Source of the DNA: Candidatus Kuenenbacteria bacterium
GTDB taxonomy: Bacteria > Patescibacteriota > Patescibacteriia > UBA11705 > JABHMO01
Assembly (NCBI GenBank): GCA_013202715.1
Contig: JABMRF010000046.1
Coordinates: forward strand, 1 to 57,310
Direction: 5' to 3'
DNA: 57,310 nt
Shown: positions 32,557 to 54,063 of the stretch, piece after piece
How the letters are laid out: every line of letters starts with the position of its first letter
Numbering within the stretch: position 1 is the stretch's first letter
The notes under the pieces: generated by a model
What the model was told of the DNA's origin: nothing
The model's database searches: none
Seen by the model: only the letters and a program-made list of their open reading frames with translations
Position numbers and translations under genes: made by a program

Positions 32557-33060
32557 TTATATACTTTCTACAATATCTACTTGTTTTTCAATAACTACAT
32601 CACCTTTACCAAAAACAAACTTAGCTTGTAATAGATTTTCTTCTAAAACTTGAGGTACCCAAAATTCATCATCTGGCCACATTTCACTATAAGGTATATC
32701 CTTGGCATCGAACCATTTTGGATTCATTTCTTCTGTTTCAATCGGTTCTCCTTTCCAATCATCAGTAAAATATACATGTACCATTTGATTCCATAAATGA
32801 TTATGAGGAAAATAAAATGATAATTCAGCTACTTTAATAAGTTGATTCACATCAACACCAATTTCTTCTTTTGTTTCTCTTTTAGCTGCTTGTTCAATTG
32901 TTTCATTTGTTTCAACTTTACCACCGACTCCATTCCAGCGATTTATACCAAAACCTCGTTTTTTCATAGCTAGACAAATCTCTGTTATTCGATCATCCGT
33001 TCTTTTTATTAAAAAGACTAAAGTTGCATTTCTTAGTTTTTCTAAAACTACTTTAGACAT
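32557..33060 (-). CDS. Nudix hydrolase (8-oxo-dGTPase / MTH1-like)
   Basis: Nudix box GGKVE.NETIEQAAKRETKEEIGV; KKRGFG..RWNG and MWPDD.FW motifs. Confidence 0.9.
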   Translation of the reverse strand: MSKVVLEKLRNATLVFLIKRTDDRITEICLAMKKRGFGINRWNGVGGKVETNETIEQAAKRETKEEIGVDVNQLIKVAELSFYFPHNHLWNQMVHVYFTDDWKGEPIETEEMNPKWFDAKDIPYSEMWPDDEFWVPQVLEENLLQAKFVFGKGDVVIEKQVDIVESI

Positions 33061-33070
33061 ATTTTTTTCA

Positions 33071-33161
33071 TGGCGGAGAGAGTGGGATTCGAACCCACGG
33101 AAGGCTATGAACCTTCAACGGTTTTCAAGACCGTCGCCTTCAACCACTCAGCCATCTCTCC
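33071..33161 (-). tRNA. tRNA-Ser(TGA)
   Basis: GGAGAGA acceptor, ACGGT-CTTGAAA-ACCGT anticodon arm, long variable arm, TTCGAAT T-loop, G73, CCA; 91 nt. Confidence 0.95.
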
Positions 33162-33441
33162 ACGGTTTTTTATCTCTTACCTTTTCAGGATTAGGATGTC
33201 CATGCTTGATCAAATTTTCCTTCTTAATTCGACTCCATCTTTTAACCTGTAGCTCTCTTCTTCGAGCTTCAATAAGAGTATCATATTCTTCAAGATAGAC
33301 TATTTTTGCAGAACCATGTTGTCTAATCCAGTGACTTCCTTCACCCCTATTATGACGTTCTATTCTTTGATTCGGATCATCAGTACAACCTATATATAAA
33401 CTATTATCAGGACAACGAGCAAAGTAAACAAAGTAACTCAT
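33148..33441 (-). CDS. Small stand-alone GIY-YIG nuclease (copy 1)
   Basis: MSYFVYFARC.DNSLYIGCT...RIERHN.G...A...E..VK.W.R. Start trimmed to 33441. Stop lies 14 nt inside tRNA-Ser(TGA). Confidence 0.88.
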   Translation of the reverse strand: MSYFVYFARCPDNSLYIGCTDDPNQRIERHNRGEGSHWIRQHGSAKIVYLEEYDTLIEARRRELQVKRWSRIKKENLIKHGHPNPEKVRDKKPWRDG

Positions 33442-33455
33442 ATTGATAATTTTAT

Positions 33456-33544
33456 CCCTGCCTTTCGACTCTCTTCGTTCGCTCAAGGCACTCGACTCGC
33501 TTCGATATTTGGTCGAAGACCACGAGCGAGCGAAGCGAGTCGAG
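33456..33544. repeat. Composite palindrome abutting the tRNA-Ser(GCT) CCA end
   Basis: Perfect 14-bp inverted repeat 33491-33504/33531-33544 enclosing a TGGTC-GAA-GACCA mini-hairpin, plus a CCTTTCGAC...GCTCAAGGCA element at 33456-33491. Confidence 0.8.
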
Positions 33545-33634
33545 TGGCGGAGAGGGAGGGATTCGAACCCTCGAGACCGGTAAAGGTCTAACACCTTAGC
33601 AGGGTGCCCCTTTCAACCACTCAGGCACCTCTCC
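33545..33634 (-). tRNA. tRNA-Ser(GCT)
   Basis: GGAGAGG acceptor, GCACC-CTGCTAA-GGTGT anticodon arm, long variable arm, T-arm GAGGG-TTCGAAT-CCCTC, G73, CCA; 90 nt. Confidence 0.95.
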
Positions 33635-33874
33635 ATTAATAATTCTTTTAAATGCATTCCCTCCTTTATATGACTTCACCTTTTTCTCTATCAACCGAGC
33701 GTCTTTTATTGTTTTACAAGAAAGATAATACAAAGGCTCCCATGGCCCATTTATTTTTGTATACAATCCGCCATACCCGTTATTATGCGCCTTAAATCTA
33801 TTTGTAAAATTATCGGTTGAACCAATGTAATGTTTTTTATTTTTTAAACTCCTCAATATATAAACTATCGGCAT
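33596..33874 (-). CDS. Small stand-alone GIY-YIG nuclease (copy 2)
   Basis: VYILRS....HYIGST.....R...HN.G...YTK..GPW......EKKVKSYK. The last 13 codons (GEVPEWLKGAPC*) are tRNA-Ser(GCT) nt 1-39. Confidence 0.88.
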   Translation of the reverse strand: MPIVYILRSLKNKKHYIGSTDNFTNRFKAHNNGYGGLYTKINGPWEPLYYLSCKTIKDARLIEKKVKSYKGGNAFKRIINGEVPEWLKGAPC

Positions 33875-33876
33875 AT

Positions 33877-33937
33877 CTTACAGGGTGTCCCTTTCAATTC
33901 ACCCCGCCATCGGCGGGGCAAGCTCAGGCACCTCTCC
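33877..33937 (-). pseudogene. Degenerate duplicate of the tRNA-Ser(GCT) 5' half with hairpin insertion
   Basis: GGAGAGGTGCCTGAG-CTTG-[CCCCGCCGATGGCGGGGTGAA]-TTGAAAGGGACACCCTG-TAAG versus tRNA GGAGAGGTGCCTGAGTGGTTGAAAGGGGCACCCTGCTAAG. Confidence 0.85.
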
Positions 33938-51501: not shown

Positions 51502-51900
51502 CTATTCAATGAGTTTCAACTCTAGACTTTTGACTCTAGACTCTTGACTTAACCGTATATAACCATTGATAAACTTGTTAATCCTTTATGCTTTTGACAA
51601 TATTTCAAGCTGTCAATAATAATTTTAAAATATTTTGGTTTTGTAAAAATATCAATCCACTCGATGATTGTCAATGTTAAAAAGTGAGTTACATTTTCGT
51701 TTTCTTTATGGATTCTGAGTACTGGCATATAATCTTCCCGTTTTTAAGTATCCTCATTGTGGACTCCATAGCTATTCCCCGCCTTACGGACGATGAATAG
51801 ACTATGGAGCCCCCTTTAATTAAACTATTCAATGAGTTTCAACTCTAGACTTTTGACTCTTGACTTTTGACTTAACCGTGGATAGCCATTGATAAACTTG
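51502..51900. repeat. 76-bp direct repeat pair (51502-51577 and 51825-51900)
   Basis: Manual alignment gives 71/76 identity. It duplicates the 3' end of the lamin-tail gene. Confidence 0.9.
51761..51817. repeat. REP-like palindrome (copy C)
   Basis: GGACTCCATAG-CTATTC...GAATAG-ACTATGGAGCCCCCTTT. Confidence 0.75.
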
Positions 51901-54063
51901 GCTTTTCTTCTGCCACAATAAGTACAGATTACACAGCATCAAAACCACGAATCCGCTAAGCAACAACCAAAGCGTGTTTTTCTTTTGTGAATTAGTACCA
52001 ACCTTACTATCACTGTTTTGAGCCGAGCCAACAACCGGTTTTGCTTGCAAGGTCAAGTTAACCATATCAGCCTCGCTTCTTGGCATAAGCCGATATTCAT
52101 CATCGTATTGACCAACGATCCCGGTGATTATGATTTGATTGCCAACATCAAAAAGCTTTGAACTGATCTTTGTGCCACGCTTTAAATAAACGACAAACTC
52201 ACCAAATTCATCCGCAAAAATTAGTCTACTTGAATCCTTTTCAACCAGTTCTCCTTGAACCTGAACAAAAACGCCTTCTTTTTCCTCATTAAGCCCAAGC
52301 GAATTAATTGTGGGCGGCGTTGCCACCTCTTGATTTTCCAGAATCGTTAAATCAGCTTTTTCTTTAATTAAGATTCTTTTTTCATTCCGACTTTCAGATA
52401 ATGTTCCATTAACCTCCACCAAGTCGCCAACTTTCAATTCAGGCCAGTCAGCTTTTGAAAAATAGATCTGGATTCCATTTAGATAAATAAGGCTCTTGCT
52501 AAATACTTCCGGTAAAACAACCACCTGCCCTTTAACTTTAACCTTTGACCTTAACGGTAAACTTCGAACTTCTGCTAAGCTATCCACCTCCATTGTGTCA
52601 CCCTGAGAGAGGAGGGACGACGAACCGAAGGGTGTTGTTTTTTTACTGCTCACTACCAAACCCGCCGTCTGCATAGCCGGCTTTTTATTTTCCGCACCAG
52701 GTGTTGACTCCAATGTTTCCAGCCAACCGCCCTCAAACCAGGAATTGGAATAATCTTCTTTTGGGTTTTGATAATCAACTGAACTTATAATCTGACCATT
52801 TGGATCAAGAAGATTGATCTGGTCCGATGAATTGTTTAGGACCAATCCAGTTTCTTCTTTATTAAAAACCAAATAATCATTTACTTTAATTACAATCTGA
52901 TCTTCCAACTTGAACGGTTTACTTCCGCCTTCTGCGTCATCCAGGCTCCAGCCCAACAAGTTAACGTCAGTTTCTCCGGAATTATACAACTCAATCCATT
53001 CAGCATTATCACTTCCCAGCGGATCAGCCAAAAATTCATTGATAATAATTTTATCTGAAAATTGATATACTGGTTGGACTTCTTCCACTTCTTCCACTTG
53101 CTTGTCCTCGGTAGTTTCAACGAAGGAGGATTCAACCTCTTCCACTTTTTCAACCTGCGTGTCCTCCGCAGTTTCAACGAAGGAGGGTTCAACTTCCTCA
53201 ACCTGCTTTGCCTTGAGCTTGCCTCTCGGCCATGAGCTCGAGGCCGAATGGTCGAAAGGCTCCTCGGTTAATTGAAAAAAATTAATCTGACTTGGGGTTG
53301 CAACTTCTGTTTCTTTGTATTCATCGTCAAATAAACCAATTGAATTGCCTGATTCACCGGCCGGAACATTTGAGTCTTCCCATTCGCCGTAACTAACTTT
53401 ATCAATTTGGCTTCCATAAGAATCCTGCAAAATTACACAATCGCCACCATTATTCAAACTACTTTTGTCAAAAACAAGATAACCAAGAGGTCCGATGGAA
53501 CCGGTTAATTGTGTTTTTTTGCCGGCGCCTTCGATCAAATTCCAGCCGGACAAATCAATCGCCTCTGCAGTCGTATTATACAGTTCCACCCATTCCGGAT
53601 CGCCAGAAATCGGAGCGGCCATTATTTCATTAATTCGAATTTGCTTTGGGCCAATGATCGGTTGAAAAGTATCCAACTGATCTTCAACTACATTCGCTTG
53701 CTCAGTTGAACTGTTTTCTTCAATTAAATTATCTTCTTCAAGTGGTTCACTTTCCTCAGTTGAATTATTTTCTTCAACCACCTCCGTTTCCTCAGCTAGA
53801 TTATTTTCTTCTATGGAATCATCTTCACTCGCTTCCGGATCCTCAATCAACTCCGGAGTTTCAACTGGCTGTTCATCAACATTTTCCAATAAATTTTTTA
53901 ACCACGATTGACATGAATCATCTGCGCAGCCAATAACAATGTACTGGTAAACCTGACTGTCAGAAATTGTATTGTAAACCATCGCCGCCTTTGCCTGGCG
54001 AAAAACCACATCAAAAGGAATGGTCAACAGACTGATCAATAATATTCCAAGTAAATATTTCAT
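51829..54063 (-). CDS. Surface protein with two lamin-tail domains, OB folds and C-terminal TM
   Basis: Signal peptide; INEIM..P....EWVELYN and INEFL.DP...EWIELYN; OB-like V.V.G.V...; TM helix near the C-terminus. Confidence 0.8.
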   Translation of the reverse strand: MKYLLGILLISLLTIPFDVVFRQAKAAMVYNTISDSQVYQYIVIGCADDSCQSWLKNLLENVDEQPVETPELIEDPEASEDDSIEENNLAEETEVVEENNSTEESEPLEEDNLIEENSSTEQANVVEDQLDTFQPIIGPKQIRINEIMAAPISGDPEWVELYNTTAEAIDLSGWNLIEGAGKKTQLTGSIGPLGYLVFDKSSLNNGGDCVILQDSYGSQIDKVSYGEWEDSNVPAGESGNSIGLFDDEYKETEVATPSQINFFQLTEEPFDHSASSSWPRGKLKAKQVEEVEPSFVETAEDTQVEKVEEVESSFVETTEDKQVEEVEEVQPVYQFSDKIIINEFLADPLGSDNAEWIELYNSGETDVNLLGWSLDDAEGGSKPFKLEDQIVIKVNDYLVFNKEETGLVLNNSSDQINLLDPNGQIISSVDYQNPKEDYSNSWFEGGWLETLESTPGAENKKPAMQTAGLVVSSKKTTPFGSSSLLSQGDTMEVDSLAEVRSLPLRSKVKVKGQVVVLPEVFSKSLIYLNGIQIYFSKADWPELKVGDLVEVNGTLSESRNEKRILIKEKADLTILENQEVATPPTINSLGLNEEKEGVFVQVQGELVEKDSSRLIFADEFGEFVVYLKRGTKISSKLFDVGNQIIITGIVGQYDDEYRLMPRSEADMVNLTLQAKPVVGSAQNSDSKVGTNSQKKNTLWLLLSGFVVLMLCNLYLLWQKKSQVYQWLSTVKSKVKSQKSRVETH

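What the first reader, a model, noticed from the sequence alone, without database searches (positions are those of the whole stretch)
33071..33544. Second GIY-YIG/tRNA-Ser unit in tandem with the same architecture
Directly after the CCA of tRNA-Ser(GCT) come a 14-bp perfect inverted repeat and an element reading GTGCCTTGAGC-[GAACGAAGAGA]-GTCGAAAGGCAGG, which resembles a Ser tRNA D-arm region (tRNA-Ser(TGA): GATGGCTGAGTG-GTTGAAGGCGACGG). A different 97-aa GIY-YIG gene follows, and its last codons (W-R-D-G-stop) are nt 1-14 of tRNA-Ser(TGA). Two divergent nucleases each preceded by a tRNA-half-like hairpin and each ending inside a Ser tRNA suggest a recurrent targeting mechanism rather than chance (inference).
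Basis: partly seen in the sequence, partly recalled or inferred. Interest (0 to 1): 0.78.

Follow-up and report, generated by a model that had tools for sequence, protein, structure and literature searches.

The report
Nuclease-hairpin cassette behind tRNA-Ser
A tiny nuclease gene with a folded DNA leader is lodged just after the end of a serine tRNA gene; the same package follows tRNA and tmRNA genes in many ultra-small bacteria and looks like a selfish element that I found described in no paper.

Summary
The sequence features are real. After tRNA-Ser(GCT) come a perfect inverted repeat, a hairpin, a 97-aa GIY-YIG gene and tRNA-Ser(TGA), and the gene's last 14 nt are tRNA nt 1-14. The repeat is 16 bp, not 14, and includes the CA of the tRNA's CCA.

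Unit 2 is not built like unit 1.
- Its "D-arm-like" element matches tRNA-Ser(TGA) no better than shuffles (629/1000). Unit 1's pseudo-half matches tRNA-Ser(GCT) in 0/1000.
- The element is a family-specific hairpin: a covarying stem around an invariant GAGC...GTCGA loop.
- All close relatives of nuclease 2 (42-69% identical) begin right after the CCA end of a tmRNA gene or a tRNA gene (Ser, Gln, Pro). Their leaders have the same layout.
- Their C-terminal tails differ and do not end in tRNAs, so the overlap with tRNA-Ser(TGA) looks incidental.
- A syntenic relative has unit 1 and both tRNAs 24 nt apart, without unit 2.
- The two nucleases fall in separate supported clades, so they arrived independently.

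Best reading: a small selfish cassette with a bare Slx1/UPF0213/Ssn-like nuclease that settles at tRNA/tmRNA 3' ends. The site preference is shown; mobility and mechanism are inferred. I found no published description of it.

The parts
33545..33634 (-). tRNA-Ser(GCT). The unit 2 cassette starts at its 3' CCA end. Its first 39 nt are also the last 13 codons plus stop of the unit 1 nuclease.
   Evidence: ARAGORN; Rfam RF00005 58.3 bits
33531..33546 (-). Left arm of the 16-bp perfect inverted repeat (CACTCGACTCGCTTCG). It begins with the CA of the tRNA's CCA. The junction CCA|CTCGAC is the family-wide junction CCA|YTCGAY.
   Evidence: the repeat finder I2; same junction in 20+ relatives
33510..33527 (-). 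Conserved core of the leader, GCTCGTGGTCTTCGACCA (small hairpin TGGTC-TTC-GACCA). Relatives carry an extra hairpin inside it.
   Evidence: Pattern GCTCRTGGTYTWC hits only here in the window and in 12 close-relative loci plus L069; sequences
33489..33504 (-). Right arm of the inverted repeat (CGAAGCGAGTCGAGTG). It ends in the family motif GTCGARTGG, the reverse complement of CCAYTCGAC.
33459..33490 (-). Family-specific hairpin: stem TGCCTT/AAGGCA closing the loop GAGC...GTCGA.
   Evidence: In 19 relatives the stem covaries (88.6% paired, 22 double-change cells, 0/500 shuffles) and the loop ends GAG / TCGA are invariant. Not tRNA-like by the shuffle test.
33148..33441 (-). 97-aa single-domain GIY-YIG nuclease gene (nuclease 2). 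Residues 1-80 form the fold. The tail from about residue 84 is not conserved and is low-confidence from about residue 85 (below pLDDT 50 at 90-95). The last 14 nt lie inside tRNA-Ser(TGA).
   Evidence: Pfam; invariant Y6, Y16, R26, H30, E63, N76 in A1; PDB UPF0213 1zg2 E 3.4e-12; AF2 pLDDT 86.6, tail below 50; Foldseek UPF0213 and Slx1
33071..33161 (-). tRNA-Ser(TGA), intact. It marks the right-hand limit of the inserted cassette.
   Evidence: ARAGORN; Rfam 61.1 bits; in syntenic L001 it lies 24 nt after tRNA-Ser(GCT)
33596..33874 (-). Context: unit 1 nuclease gene (92 aa), of a different clade. Its tail GEVPEWLKGAPC* is the translated tRNA-Ser(GCT) 5' half.
   Evidence: (about 20 homologues end in the same tRNA-encoded tail)
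33877..33937 (-). Context: unit 1 pseudo-copy of tRNA-Ser(GCT) nt 1-39, with a CCCCGCC-GATG-GCGGGG hairpin inserted in the D-loop.
   Evidence: 0/1000 shuffles

Best explanation
Unit 2 is one copy of a compact cassette of about 0.36 kb. It has two parts. The first is a structured leader of about 100 nt: an inverted repeat that incorporates the CCA end of the preceding RNA gene, a conserved GCTCRTGGTC...GACCA core, and a hairpin with a covarying stem and an invariant GAGC...GTCGA loop. The second is the gene of a bare GIY-YIG nuclease of about 85-97 aa, of the Slx1/UPF0213/Ssn kind, with no DNA-binding domain. This cassette type sits immediately after the 3' CCA end of tmRNA and tRNA genes. Here it fills what is a 24-nt spacer between tRNA-Ser(GCT) and tRNA-Ser(TGA) in a syntenic relative, and its reading frame runs on until the first stop inside tRNA-Ser(TGA). 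Shown: the anatomy, the conserved junction, the covariation, the association with RNA-gene 3' ends, presence versus absence at an orthologous site, and arrival independent of unit 1. Inferred: it is a selfish, nuclease-driven element. The nuclease would recognise its cognate hairpin plus the flanking word GAGTCGAR (two direct copies and one inverted copy in the leader) in single-stranded or extruded DNA, as Ssn nucleases do. The breaks it makes at or next to tRNA/tmRNA ends would be repaired by host recombination, which copies the cassette. Because the cassette lies on the tRNA strand with no terminator in between, it is probably expressed by read-through. RNase P cleavage at tRNA-Ser(TGA) would then remove its stop codon, which may keep nuclease levels low; this last point is also inferred.
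For: Anatomy. Nuclease: Pfam GIY-YIG E 1.4e-15; signature residues invariant; UPF0213 and Slx1 as nearest structures. Site rule: every locus whose protein is at least 42% identical starts at the 3' end of a tmRNA gene (Rfam RF00023 in L081, L083, L084, L085, L161, L165, L166, L167; context smpB-ssrA-GIY-infC) or of a tRNA gene (Ser gct L091, Ser cga L093, Gln L094, Pro L086/L087), with junction CCA|YTCGAY. The inverted repeat is 9-16 bp in most of these loci, and its outer end follows the RNA's end: CCA pairs with TGG, and CCC pairs with GGG at tRNA-Pro. Hairpin covariation. Insertion: L001 is syntenic (FtsE 78%, FtsX 68% identical) and has unit 1 and both tRNAs 24 nt apart, without unit 2. 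A solo leader module without a gene follows tRNA-Tyr in L069, and a second hairpin of this type lies at window 53210-53260. Separate clades for the two nucleases. Precedents: Ssn nucleases pair with hairpin repeats in an IS-like layout (PMC11893778); phage SegB is linked to tRNA genes and drives their segmental amplification (PMC2330249; PMC13096335).
Against: No movement was observed. The metagenome contigs gave no clean empty-site allele of this strain. The one filled/empty comparison is between genomes only 68-78% identical in flanking proteins, so loss in L001 is not excluded. A hydrolytic GIY-YIG nuclease cannot join DNA, and no homology is evident on the cassette's downstream side, so it is unexplained how it reaches new, non-orthologous tRNA ends. 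The published Ssn repeat pattern does not match here (0 hits), and only the upstream side carries a hairpin. Many close relatives come from a few related lineages behind tmRNA, so the number of independent insertions is smaller than the number of loci.
Confidence: 0.6

Rival explanations
1. First reader's model. Unit 2 has unit 1's design: a nuclease that targets tRNA-Ser genes, preceded by a tRNA-half mimic and nested at the 5' side of tRNA-Ser(TGA), which it ends inside.
For: The ORF does end 14 nt inside tRNA-Ser(TGA). Short words (TGAG, GAAAGG) are shared with Ser D-arms. Unit 1 really has this design. In L089 a CCCGC hairpin sits inside a hairpin of the unit 2 type, which hints that the two motif types may be distantly related.
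Against: The element matches tRNA-Ser(TGA) no better than shuffles (629/1000), and so does the whole leader. The minimal family motif is no closer to Ser tRNAs than shuffled motifs are. The same motif stands behind tmRNA genes with no Ser tRNA nearby. Only 2 of 84 relatives end near a tRNA 5' end, and the tails are not conserved.
Confidence: 0.07
2. Domesticated host nuclease. This would be an Ssn-like single-strand DNA nuclease kept by the cell, for example to police incoming or recombining DNA at its cognate hairpins. It would be parked behind strongly transcribed tRNA/tmRNA genes for expression, with the leader as its recognition or regulatory site.
For: Ssn of Neisseria has such a role and the same size and fold class (PMC11893778). 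The ORF is intact with all signature residues. At least one further hairpin of this type lies elsewhere in the window, inside a gene (53210-53260). Nuclease 2 lies on the same side of the tree as proteins flanked by true NTS-type repeats.
Against: Presence is patchy at a syntenic site (L001 lacks it). The cassette occurs behind many different RNA genes. Stacked, solo and remnant copies occur in relatives (L081, L165, L069, L006, L008). No genome-wide repeat family is visible in 57 kb.
Confidence: 0.2
3. The leader works mainly as RNA: a processing or attenuation structure in the tRNA read-through transcript that sets tRNA 3' maturation or nuclease translation. On this view the CCA-containing stem is an RNA feature, not a DNA one. 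This reading is compatible with either of the readings above.
For: The cassette lies on the same strand as the tRNAs. The only promoter-like sites lie upstream of unit 1, and no terminator was found across 34150-32900. The RNA fold is very stable (-54.2 kcal/mol, z -6.6). Stem covariation fits RNA as well as DNA.
Against: No Rfam family matches and no RNA-seq run holds the stretch. Perfect 16-bp palindromes and solo copies inside a gene on the opposite strand fit a DNA-level element better. The MFE fold of the window copy does not form the 16-bp repeat and the conserved hairpin that relatives share.
Confidence: 0.1
4. Chance juxtaposition or an assembly chimera at repeated tRNA sequences.
For: Metagenome contigs break at the conserved tRNA T-arms.
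Against: Contigs identical over the stretch span unit 2: 33071-33573 in run X1, and from about 33102-33116 to 33573 in three more runs. The architecture recurs in dozens of independent assemblies.
Confidence: 0.02

Closest known systems
Ssn family of site-specific single-strand DNA nucleases with NTS/SRM hairpin repeats (SsnA of Neisseria meningitidis; Chenal et al., Nat Commun 2025, PMC11893778)
   Same: A single-domain GIY-YIG protein of about 94 aa with no DNA-binding domain. The gene is accompanied by a cognate hairpin that has a conserved 5' flank and sequence-specific parts. The layout is IS-like. Proteins flanked by true NTS-like repeats are 35-38% identical to nuclease 2 and lie on its side of the tree.
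   Different: The published SRM pattern has no hit here. The hairpin is of another type (GAGC...GTCGA loop) and stands only upstream. The cassette is tied to the CCA end of tRNA/tmRNA genes, which that paper does not mention (0 occurrences of 'tRNA'). No dispersed repeat family is visible in the window.
Free-standing GIY-YIG homing endonuclease SegB of T4/T6 phages (PMC2330249; PMC13096335)
   Same: A GIY-YIG nuclease gene that lives among tRNA genes. The association with tRNAs of many isotypes is statistically strong in phages. It promotes copying or amplification of the neighbouring tRNA segment, and there is microhomology between the 3' end of segB and a tRNA 5' end.
   Different: SegB is a phage protein with a C-terminal DNA-binding part and cuts double-stranded DNA. 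The element here is chromosomal, its nuclease is a bare catalytic domain, it has a structured hairpin leader, and its position relative to the CCA end is exact.
UPF0213 / YhbQ-type stand-alone GIY-YIG proteins (PDB 1ZG2, 1YWL) and the Slx1 nuclease domain
   Same: These are the best sequence and fold matches (E 3.4e-12; Foldseek, Slx1 rmsd 1.6 A over 72 columns). Slx1 cuts branched and hairpin DNA by structure.
   Different: No function, repeat partner or tRNA linkage is on record for the UPF0213 structures. Slx1 works with Slx4 and has a RING domain.
REP/REPIN elements with RAYT, and IS200/IS605 (hairpin-recognising HUH transposases)
   Same: Hairpin modules are paired with one small enzyme gene, solo hairpin copies occur, and insertion lies next to a defined short sequence.
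   Different: The enzyme is a hydrolytic GIY-YIG nuclease, not a Y1 HUH transposase, so no covalent strand transfer is expected.
GIY-YIG-encoding non-intron insertions in CPR rRNA genes (PMC11270868)
   Same: Small GIY-YIG genes inserted in or next to stable-RNA genes of ultra-small (CPR) bacteria, not inside introns.
   Different: Those lie within rRNA genes. No CCA-end rule or hairpin leader is described, and tRNA is not mentioned in that paper.

Membership tests
GIY-YIG nuclease superfamily (Pfam PF01541) | Domain match above the curated cut-off, with the signature residues (two Tyr, Arg, Glu, Asn) kept | tested here: met
   57.7 bits against a cut-off of 22.6. Y6, Y16, R26, H30, E63 and N76 are invariant in 11 relatives. 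GIY-YIG-type fold at pLDDT 86.6.
Stand-alone UPF0213/Slx1-like GIY-YIG | Catalytic domain only, with no added DNA-binding domain; nearest structures are UPF0213 and Slx1 | tested here: met
   97 aa. The tail after about residue 84 is not conserved and is low-confidence from about residue 85, below pLDDT 50 at 90-95. 1zg2 E 3.4e-12. Foldseek top hits are 1zg2, 1ywl and Slx1 6seh.
Ssn family (Chenal et al. 2025) | Protein belongs to the cd10448 clade | not testable with these tools
   CDD is not on hand. Indirect evidence only: 35-38% identity to proteins flanked by NTS-type repeats, and the same half of a poorly resolved tree.
Ssn family (Chenal et al. 2025) | Gene flanked by repeats that match the published SRM pattern HGTCWYN(0-2)YYVSBRHN(0-5)WNVSBRGN(0-2)RNCYNB | tested here: not met
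   0 hits in the 57-kb window and in close relatives. The pattern hits on both sides of the genes in L113, L116, L121 and L122, used as positive controls. A different, covarying hairpin with a conserved 5' flank is present upstream only.
Ssn family (Chenal et al. 2025) | Cuts only single-stranded DNA next to its hairpin | not testable with these tools
   Needs the purified protein.
Free-standing homing endonuclease genes (SegB-like) | Nuclease with a separate DNA-binding domain that recognises a long double-stranded site | tested here: not met
   There is no second domain.
Free-standing homing endonuclease genes (SegB-like) | Present/absent polymorphism at an otherwise conserved site | tested here: met
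   Syntenic L001 has both tRNAs 24 nt apart without unit 2. This is a single comparison between fairly distant genomes.
5'-nested tRNA cassette (unit 1 type) | A pseudo-copy of the neighbouring tRNA's own 5' part, carrying a CCCGCC...GGCGGG hairpin, upstream of the ORF | tested here: not met
   For unit 2 there is no significant similarity to either Ser tRNA and no such hairpin. Unit 1 meets both features.
3'-CCA-abutting tRNA/tmRNA cassette (family defined here from relatives) | Junction CCA|YTCGAY; an inverted repeat that includes the CCA; core GCTCRTGGTYTWC; GAGC...GTCGA hairpin 3-27 nt before the ATG of the nuclease gene | tested here: met
   All four features are present in the window and in the close relatives.

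The most novel reading that the evidence does not exclude
A bare GIY-YIG nuclease of about 85-97 aa, together with its roughly 100-nt hairpin leader, is a self-sufficient mobile element of a new class. It would insert precisely after the NCCA end of essentially any tRNA or tmRNA gene and build its left inverted-repeat arm from the target's own CCA. A second, unrelated cassette type, which nests at the tRNA 5' side and supplies a replacement 5' half, could colonise the same tRNA gene. One tRNA-Ser gene here would then be flanked by two different parasites of stable-RNA genes.
Probability: 0.35. Interest if true: 0.85.

Novelty: new variant of a known kind. Interest (0 to 1): 0.6.

Why it matters
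If the reading holds, tRNA and tmRNA genes of many uncultivated bacteria are landing sites for some of the smallest gene-bearing selfish elements known. These elements are driven by a nuclease that consists of little more than a catalytic domain and must read DNA structure rather than a long sequence. That would have four consequences.
- It would give a biological context to the large and mostly uncharacterised UPF0213/Ssn-like protein families.
- It would explain odd 'pseudo-tRNA' and hairpin debris next to tRNA genes in genome annotations.
- It would explain annotated proteins whose ends are translated tRNA sequence.
- It could supply compact hairpin-specific nucleases as laboratory tools.

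For this finding in particular, two look-alike neighbours turn out to be different element types, one using each end of the same tRNA gene.

Tried and rejected
No census of cassettes, hairpins or tRNAs in the window's own genome was possible.
- Rfam with permissive thresholds gave only the three tRNAs and sub-threshold noise over the leader (Actino-pnp 22 bits against a cut-off of 47.7).
- NCBIfam names nothing for nuclease 2.
- I laid four metagenome runs to look for an empty-site allele or excision joint. All joints have short sides (30 nt or less) at conserved tRNA T-arms and come from other organisms' tRNAs. The runs only confirm the assembly. No RNA run holds the stretch.
- I tested the D-arm idea three ways: element against the two tRNAs, whole leader against both strands, and the minimal family motif against 148 tRNAs by isotype. 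It failed each time.
- I considered that the leader hides a pseudo-anticodon arm (GGTCTT...ACC). I rejected this because the same core stands behind tmRNA genes.
- I considered a small ORF in the leader. I did not pursue it: the extended ORF calls (P0001, P0005) differ between relatives.
- The MFE fold of the window copy pairs the tRNA acceptor 3' strand with the 3' side of the hairpin. I saw no such pairing in relatives by eye (for example L161) and did not test it further, so I do not count it as a feature of the family.
- Six literature searches found no description of GIY-YIG cassettes at tRNA/tmRNA CCA ends.
Full report
**Anatomy**

Everything relevant is on the minus strand. The order after ftsX (34953-34039) is:
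- a promoter-like TTGACA-N17-TAAGTT (34034-34006, read);
- a pseudo-copy of the first 39 nt of tRNA-Ser(GCT), with a GC hairpin in its D-loop (33937-33877);
- nuclease gene 1 (33874-33596, 92 aa), whose last 13 codons and stop are the first 39 nt of tRNA-Ser(GCT) (33634-33545);
- a 103-nt leader (33544-33442);
- nuclease gene 2 (33441-33148, 97 aa), whose last 14 nt are the first 14 nt of tRNA-Ser(TGA) (33161-33071);
- a NUDIX gene.

Both ORFs carry a GIY-YIG domain (E 1.4e-15 and 1.9e-13) and are 33% identical to each other. No terminator-like site lies between 34150 and 32900, and the only promoter-like sites lie upstream of unit 1.

**Check of the observation**

The inverted repeat is perfect, but it is 16 bp long and its left arm includes the CA of the CCA end. 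The leader folds far better than shuffles, with z -6.2 as DNA and -6.6 as RNA. An identical contig over 33071-33573 stands in an independent assembly of a public freshwater metagenome run, and near-full ones stand in three more, so the arrangement is not a chimera.

The claimed likeness of the element to a tRNA-Ser D-arm does not hold:
- against tRNA-Ser(TGA), 629 of 1000 dinucleotide shuffles score at least as well;
- against tRNA-Ser(GCT), 56 of 1000 do;
- the whole leader matches neither tRNA on either strand;
- the minimal family motif is no closer to Ser tRNAs than shuffled motifs are.

The method can detect a real pseudo-half. Unit 1's pseudo-half scores 54 against a shuffle mean of 19.3 +/- 3.7, which is 0 of 1000.

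**Unit 1, for comparison**

About 20 homologues of nuclease 1, from Falkowbacteria, Tagabacteria, Omnitrophota and others, end in GEVPEWLKGAPC* or GEVAEWSKAARC*. These tails are translated tRNA-Ser(GCT) 5' halves.

In 80 loci from species-representative genomes, 70 of 84 distinct relatives abut a same-strand tRNA. At random positions of the same loci the figure is 2.5%. The downstream tRNAs are Ser, Tyr, Gly, Pro, Glu and others. Upstream of the ATG lies a copy of that same tRNA's 5' part. In that copy a hairpin yCCCGCC-N2-5-GGCGGGr is inserted, or it replaces the anticodon arm; the hairpin core is present somewhere in 68 of 80 loci. Unit 1 is a true member of this 5'-nested type.

**Unit 2: relatives and their position**

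The closest relatives of nuclease 2 (54-69% identical) and 80 metagenome loci show a different rule. Every locus whose protein is at least 42% identical begins at the 3' end of a stable-RNA gene.
- tmRNA genes in L081, L083, L084, L085, L161, L165, L166 and L167 (Rfam RF00023, 54-132 bits). The gene context is smpB-ssrA-nuclease-infC.
- tRNA genes: Ser(gct) in L091, Ser(cga) in L093, Gln in L094, Pro in L086 and L087.

The junction is always CCA|YTCGAY.

**Unit 2: the leader**

The leaders share one architecture.
- A perfect inverted repeat of 9-16 bp in most of these loci. Its left arm includes the RNA's terminal CCA and its right arm ends in GTCGARTGG. At the two tRNA-Pro genes that end in CCC, the right arm ends in GGG.
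- A conserved core GCTCRTGGTYTWC...GACCA, often with an extra hairpin inside. This core occurs once in the window and in 12 of these loci.
- A hairpin with a 4-7 bp stem around a loop that starts GAGC and ends GTCGA, with 11-61 nt in between, placed 3-27 nt before the ATG.

On 19 sequences the stem is 88.6% paired, with 22 double-change cells (0 of 500 shuffles). The four inner pairs are always paired, and the loop ends are invariant. One caveat applies: the stems were located by their pairing next to the invariant loop ends, so the alignment leans towards the structure.

It occurs behind tmRNA genes where no Ser tRNA is near.

**Unit 2: the overlap with tRNA-Ser(TGA)**

The relatives' C-terminal tails differ after ...LIKxxHP. 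Only 2 of 84 relatives end near a tRNA 5' end. In the model the tail of nuclease 2 is low-confidence from about residue 85 and falls below pLDDT 50 at residues 90-95. The overlap is therefore best read as a frame that runs on into whatever lies downstream.

**Insertion and independent arrival**

L001 (a Falkowbacteria MAG) is syntenic with the window: FtsE is 78% identical, FtsX 68%, and the downstream DUF5673-like gene 48%. It carries unit 1 and then tRNA-Ser(GCT), 24 nt, tRNA-Ser(TGA), without unit 2. The roughly 380 nt between the two tRNAs in the window are therefore an insertion, or a loss in L001.

In a tree of 147 proteins, nuclease 1 lies in a clade of 67 (support 99) that holds mostly 5'-nested genes with the CCCGC hairpin. 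Nuclease 2 lies in a clade of 12 (support 96), of which 10 abut RNA 3' ends. That clade is on the half of the tree that also holds proteins flanked by Neisseria-type NTS repeats. The two genes are not a local duplication.

In L069 one tRNA-Tyr carries a unit-1-type cassette at its 5' side and a gene-less leader module at its CCA end. Double occupancy of one tRNA therefore recurs.

**What the nuclease is**

The nearest solved relatives are the UPF0213 proteins BH0048 and EF2693 (E 3.4e-12 and 1.2e-9). The model (pLDDT 86.6) superposes on those and on the Slx1 nuclease domain, with rmsd 1.6 A over 72 columns. The GIY-YIG signature residues are invariant. There is no DNA-binding domain.

The closest characterised system is Ssn. 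These are GIY-YIG nucleases of about 94 aa that cut single-stranded DNA next to a cognate hairpin with a conserved 5' flank, and their genes are flanked by such repeats in an IS-like layout (PMC11893778). The published SRM search pattern finds the repeats beside the more distant relatives L113, L116, L121 and L122. It finds nothing in the window or in close relatives. The hairpin here is thus a different cognate motif, and membership in Ssn as published is not shown.

**How it most likely works**

Shown: a conserved pairing of nuclease gene and hairpin leader, with an exact position after the CCA of tRNA/tmRNA genes; patchy presence; solo and stacked copies in relatives; and independent arrival beside another cassette type.

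Inferred: a selfish element whose structure-reading nuclease acts on its hairpin. The word GAGTCGAR occurs twice directly and once inverted in the leader. The resulting breaks near tRNA ends would be repaired by recombination that copies the cassette. This is comparable to phage SegB, which lives among tRNA genes, biases their inheritance and drives their segmental amplification (PMC2330249; PMC13096335).

How a hydrolytic nuclease would reach new, non-orthologous tRNA ends is unexplained.

Read-through expression is also inferred. RNase P cleavage at the tRNA 5' end would then leave the nuclease mRNA without a stop codon.

**Literature and earlier notes**

Six literature searches found no description of GIY-YIG cassettes at tRNA/tmRNA ends. 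The Ssn paper and the paper on CPR rRNA insertions do not mention tRNA.

Earlier notes of this scan describe the same two cassette types in other genomes. I used them as leads only. The claims that bear on this report were re-tested above on this family.

**Verdict**

The sequence features are real. The tRNA-half reading of unit 2 is wrong. The broader inference of a recurrent, non-chance link between these nucleases and tRNA genes is right, but for unit 2 the link is to the 3' end of the upstream tRNA. The cassette is a new variant of known nuclease-plus-hairpin and free-standing nuclease-gene systems. Its mobility is plausible but not demonstrated.

Noticed in passing
window 53210-53260 (+): A second hairpin of the unit 2 type (GCCTT GAGC..GGCCGAATGGTCGA AAGGC) lies inside a 744-aa ORF on the opposite strand (51829-54063). 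It may be a solo copy of the leader hairpin inserted in a coding region. The scan found 5 such hairpins in the window against 1.1 expected from shuffles.
   Followed up: partly
L069 2835-2945: A complete leader module (CCA|CTCGAC repeat, GCTCGTGGTCTTC core, TGTCCT GAGCTTGTCGA AGGACA hairpin) follows tRNA-Tyr without any nuclease gene. The same tRNA has a unit-1-type nuclease cassette at its 5' side.
   Followed up: partly
L006 2740-2830; L008 2420-2500; L022; L045: Stacked or nested copies of the unit 1 type: a second hairpin-bearing pseudo-half between the nuclease gene and the real tRNA (L006), and a remnant nuclease C-terminus ahead of the pseudo-half (L008). These suggest repeated invasions of the same tRNA gene.
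   Followed up: no
L081 1741-1990; L165 156-434: Behind tmRNA the leader is doubled: two successive hairpin modules stand before one nuclease gene.
   Followed up: no
L103 929-1105: A group I intron (Rfam RF00028, 50.5 bits) lies just upstream of a relative of nuclease 2 and ends in a tRNA-like 3' end. This cassette may follow an intron-containing tRNA gene that ARAGORN does not call.
   Followed up: no
L101 and L137: In more distant relatives the nuclease gene is bracketed by inverted copies of the hairpin motif, and 17-19 nt of the upstream tRNA's 3' end are repeated after the downstream copy. This looks like a long target duplication.
   Followed up: no
window 32557-33060 (-): The NUDIX gene directly after tRNA-Ser(TGA) is absent from the syntenic locus L001, where the DUF5673-like gene follows the tRNA. 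This is a second difference in gene content at this tRNA pair.
   Followed up: no
window 33458-33547, runs X1 and X3: A contig of 249-275 nt matches only the leader (8 differences in 90 nt) and then runs on into unlike sequence on both sides. A related leader module therefore exists in another context in the same lake metagenomes.
   Followed up: no
window 33596-33634 and protein databases: About 20 database proteins annotated as GIY-YIG nucleases end in GEVPEWLKGAPC or GEVAEWSKAARC, which is translated tRNA-Ser sequence. If RNase P cuts the transcript there, their mRNAs would lose the stop codon.
   Followed up: partly
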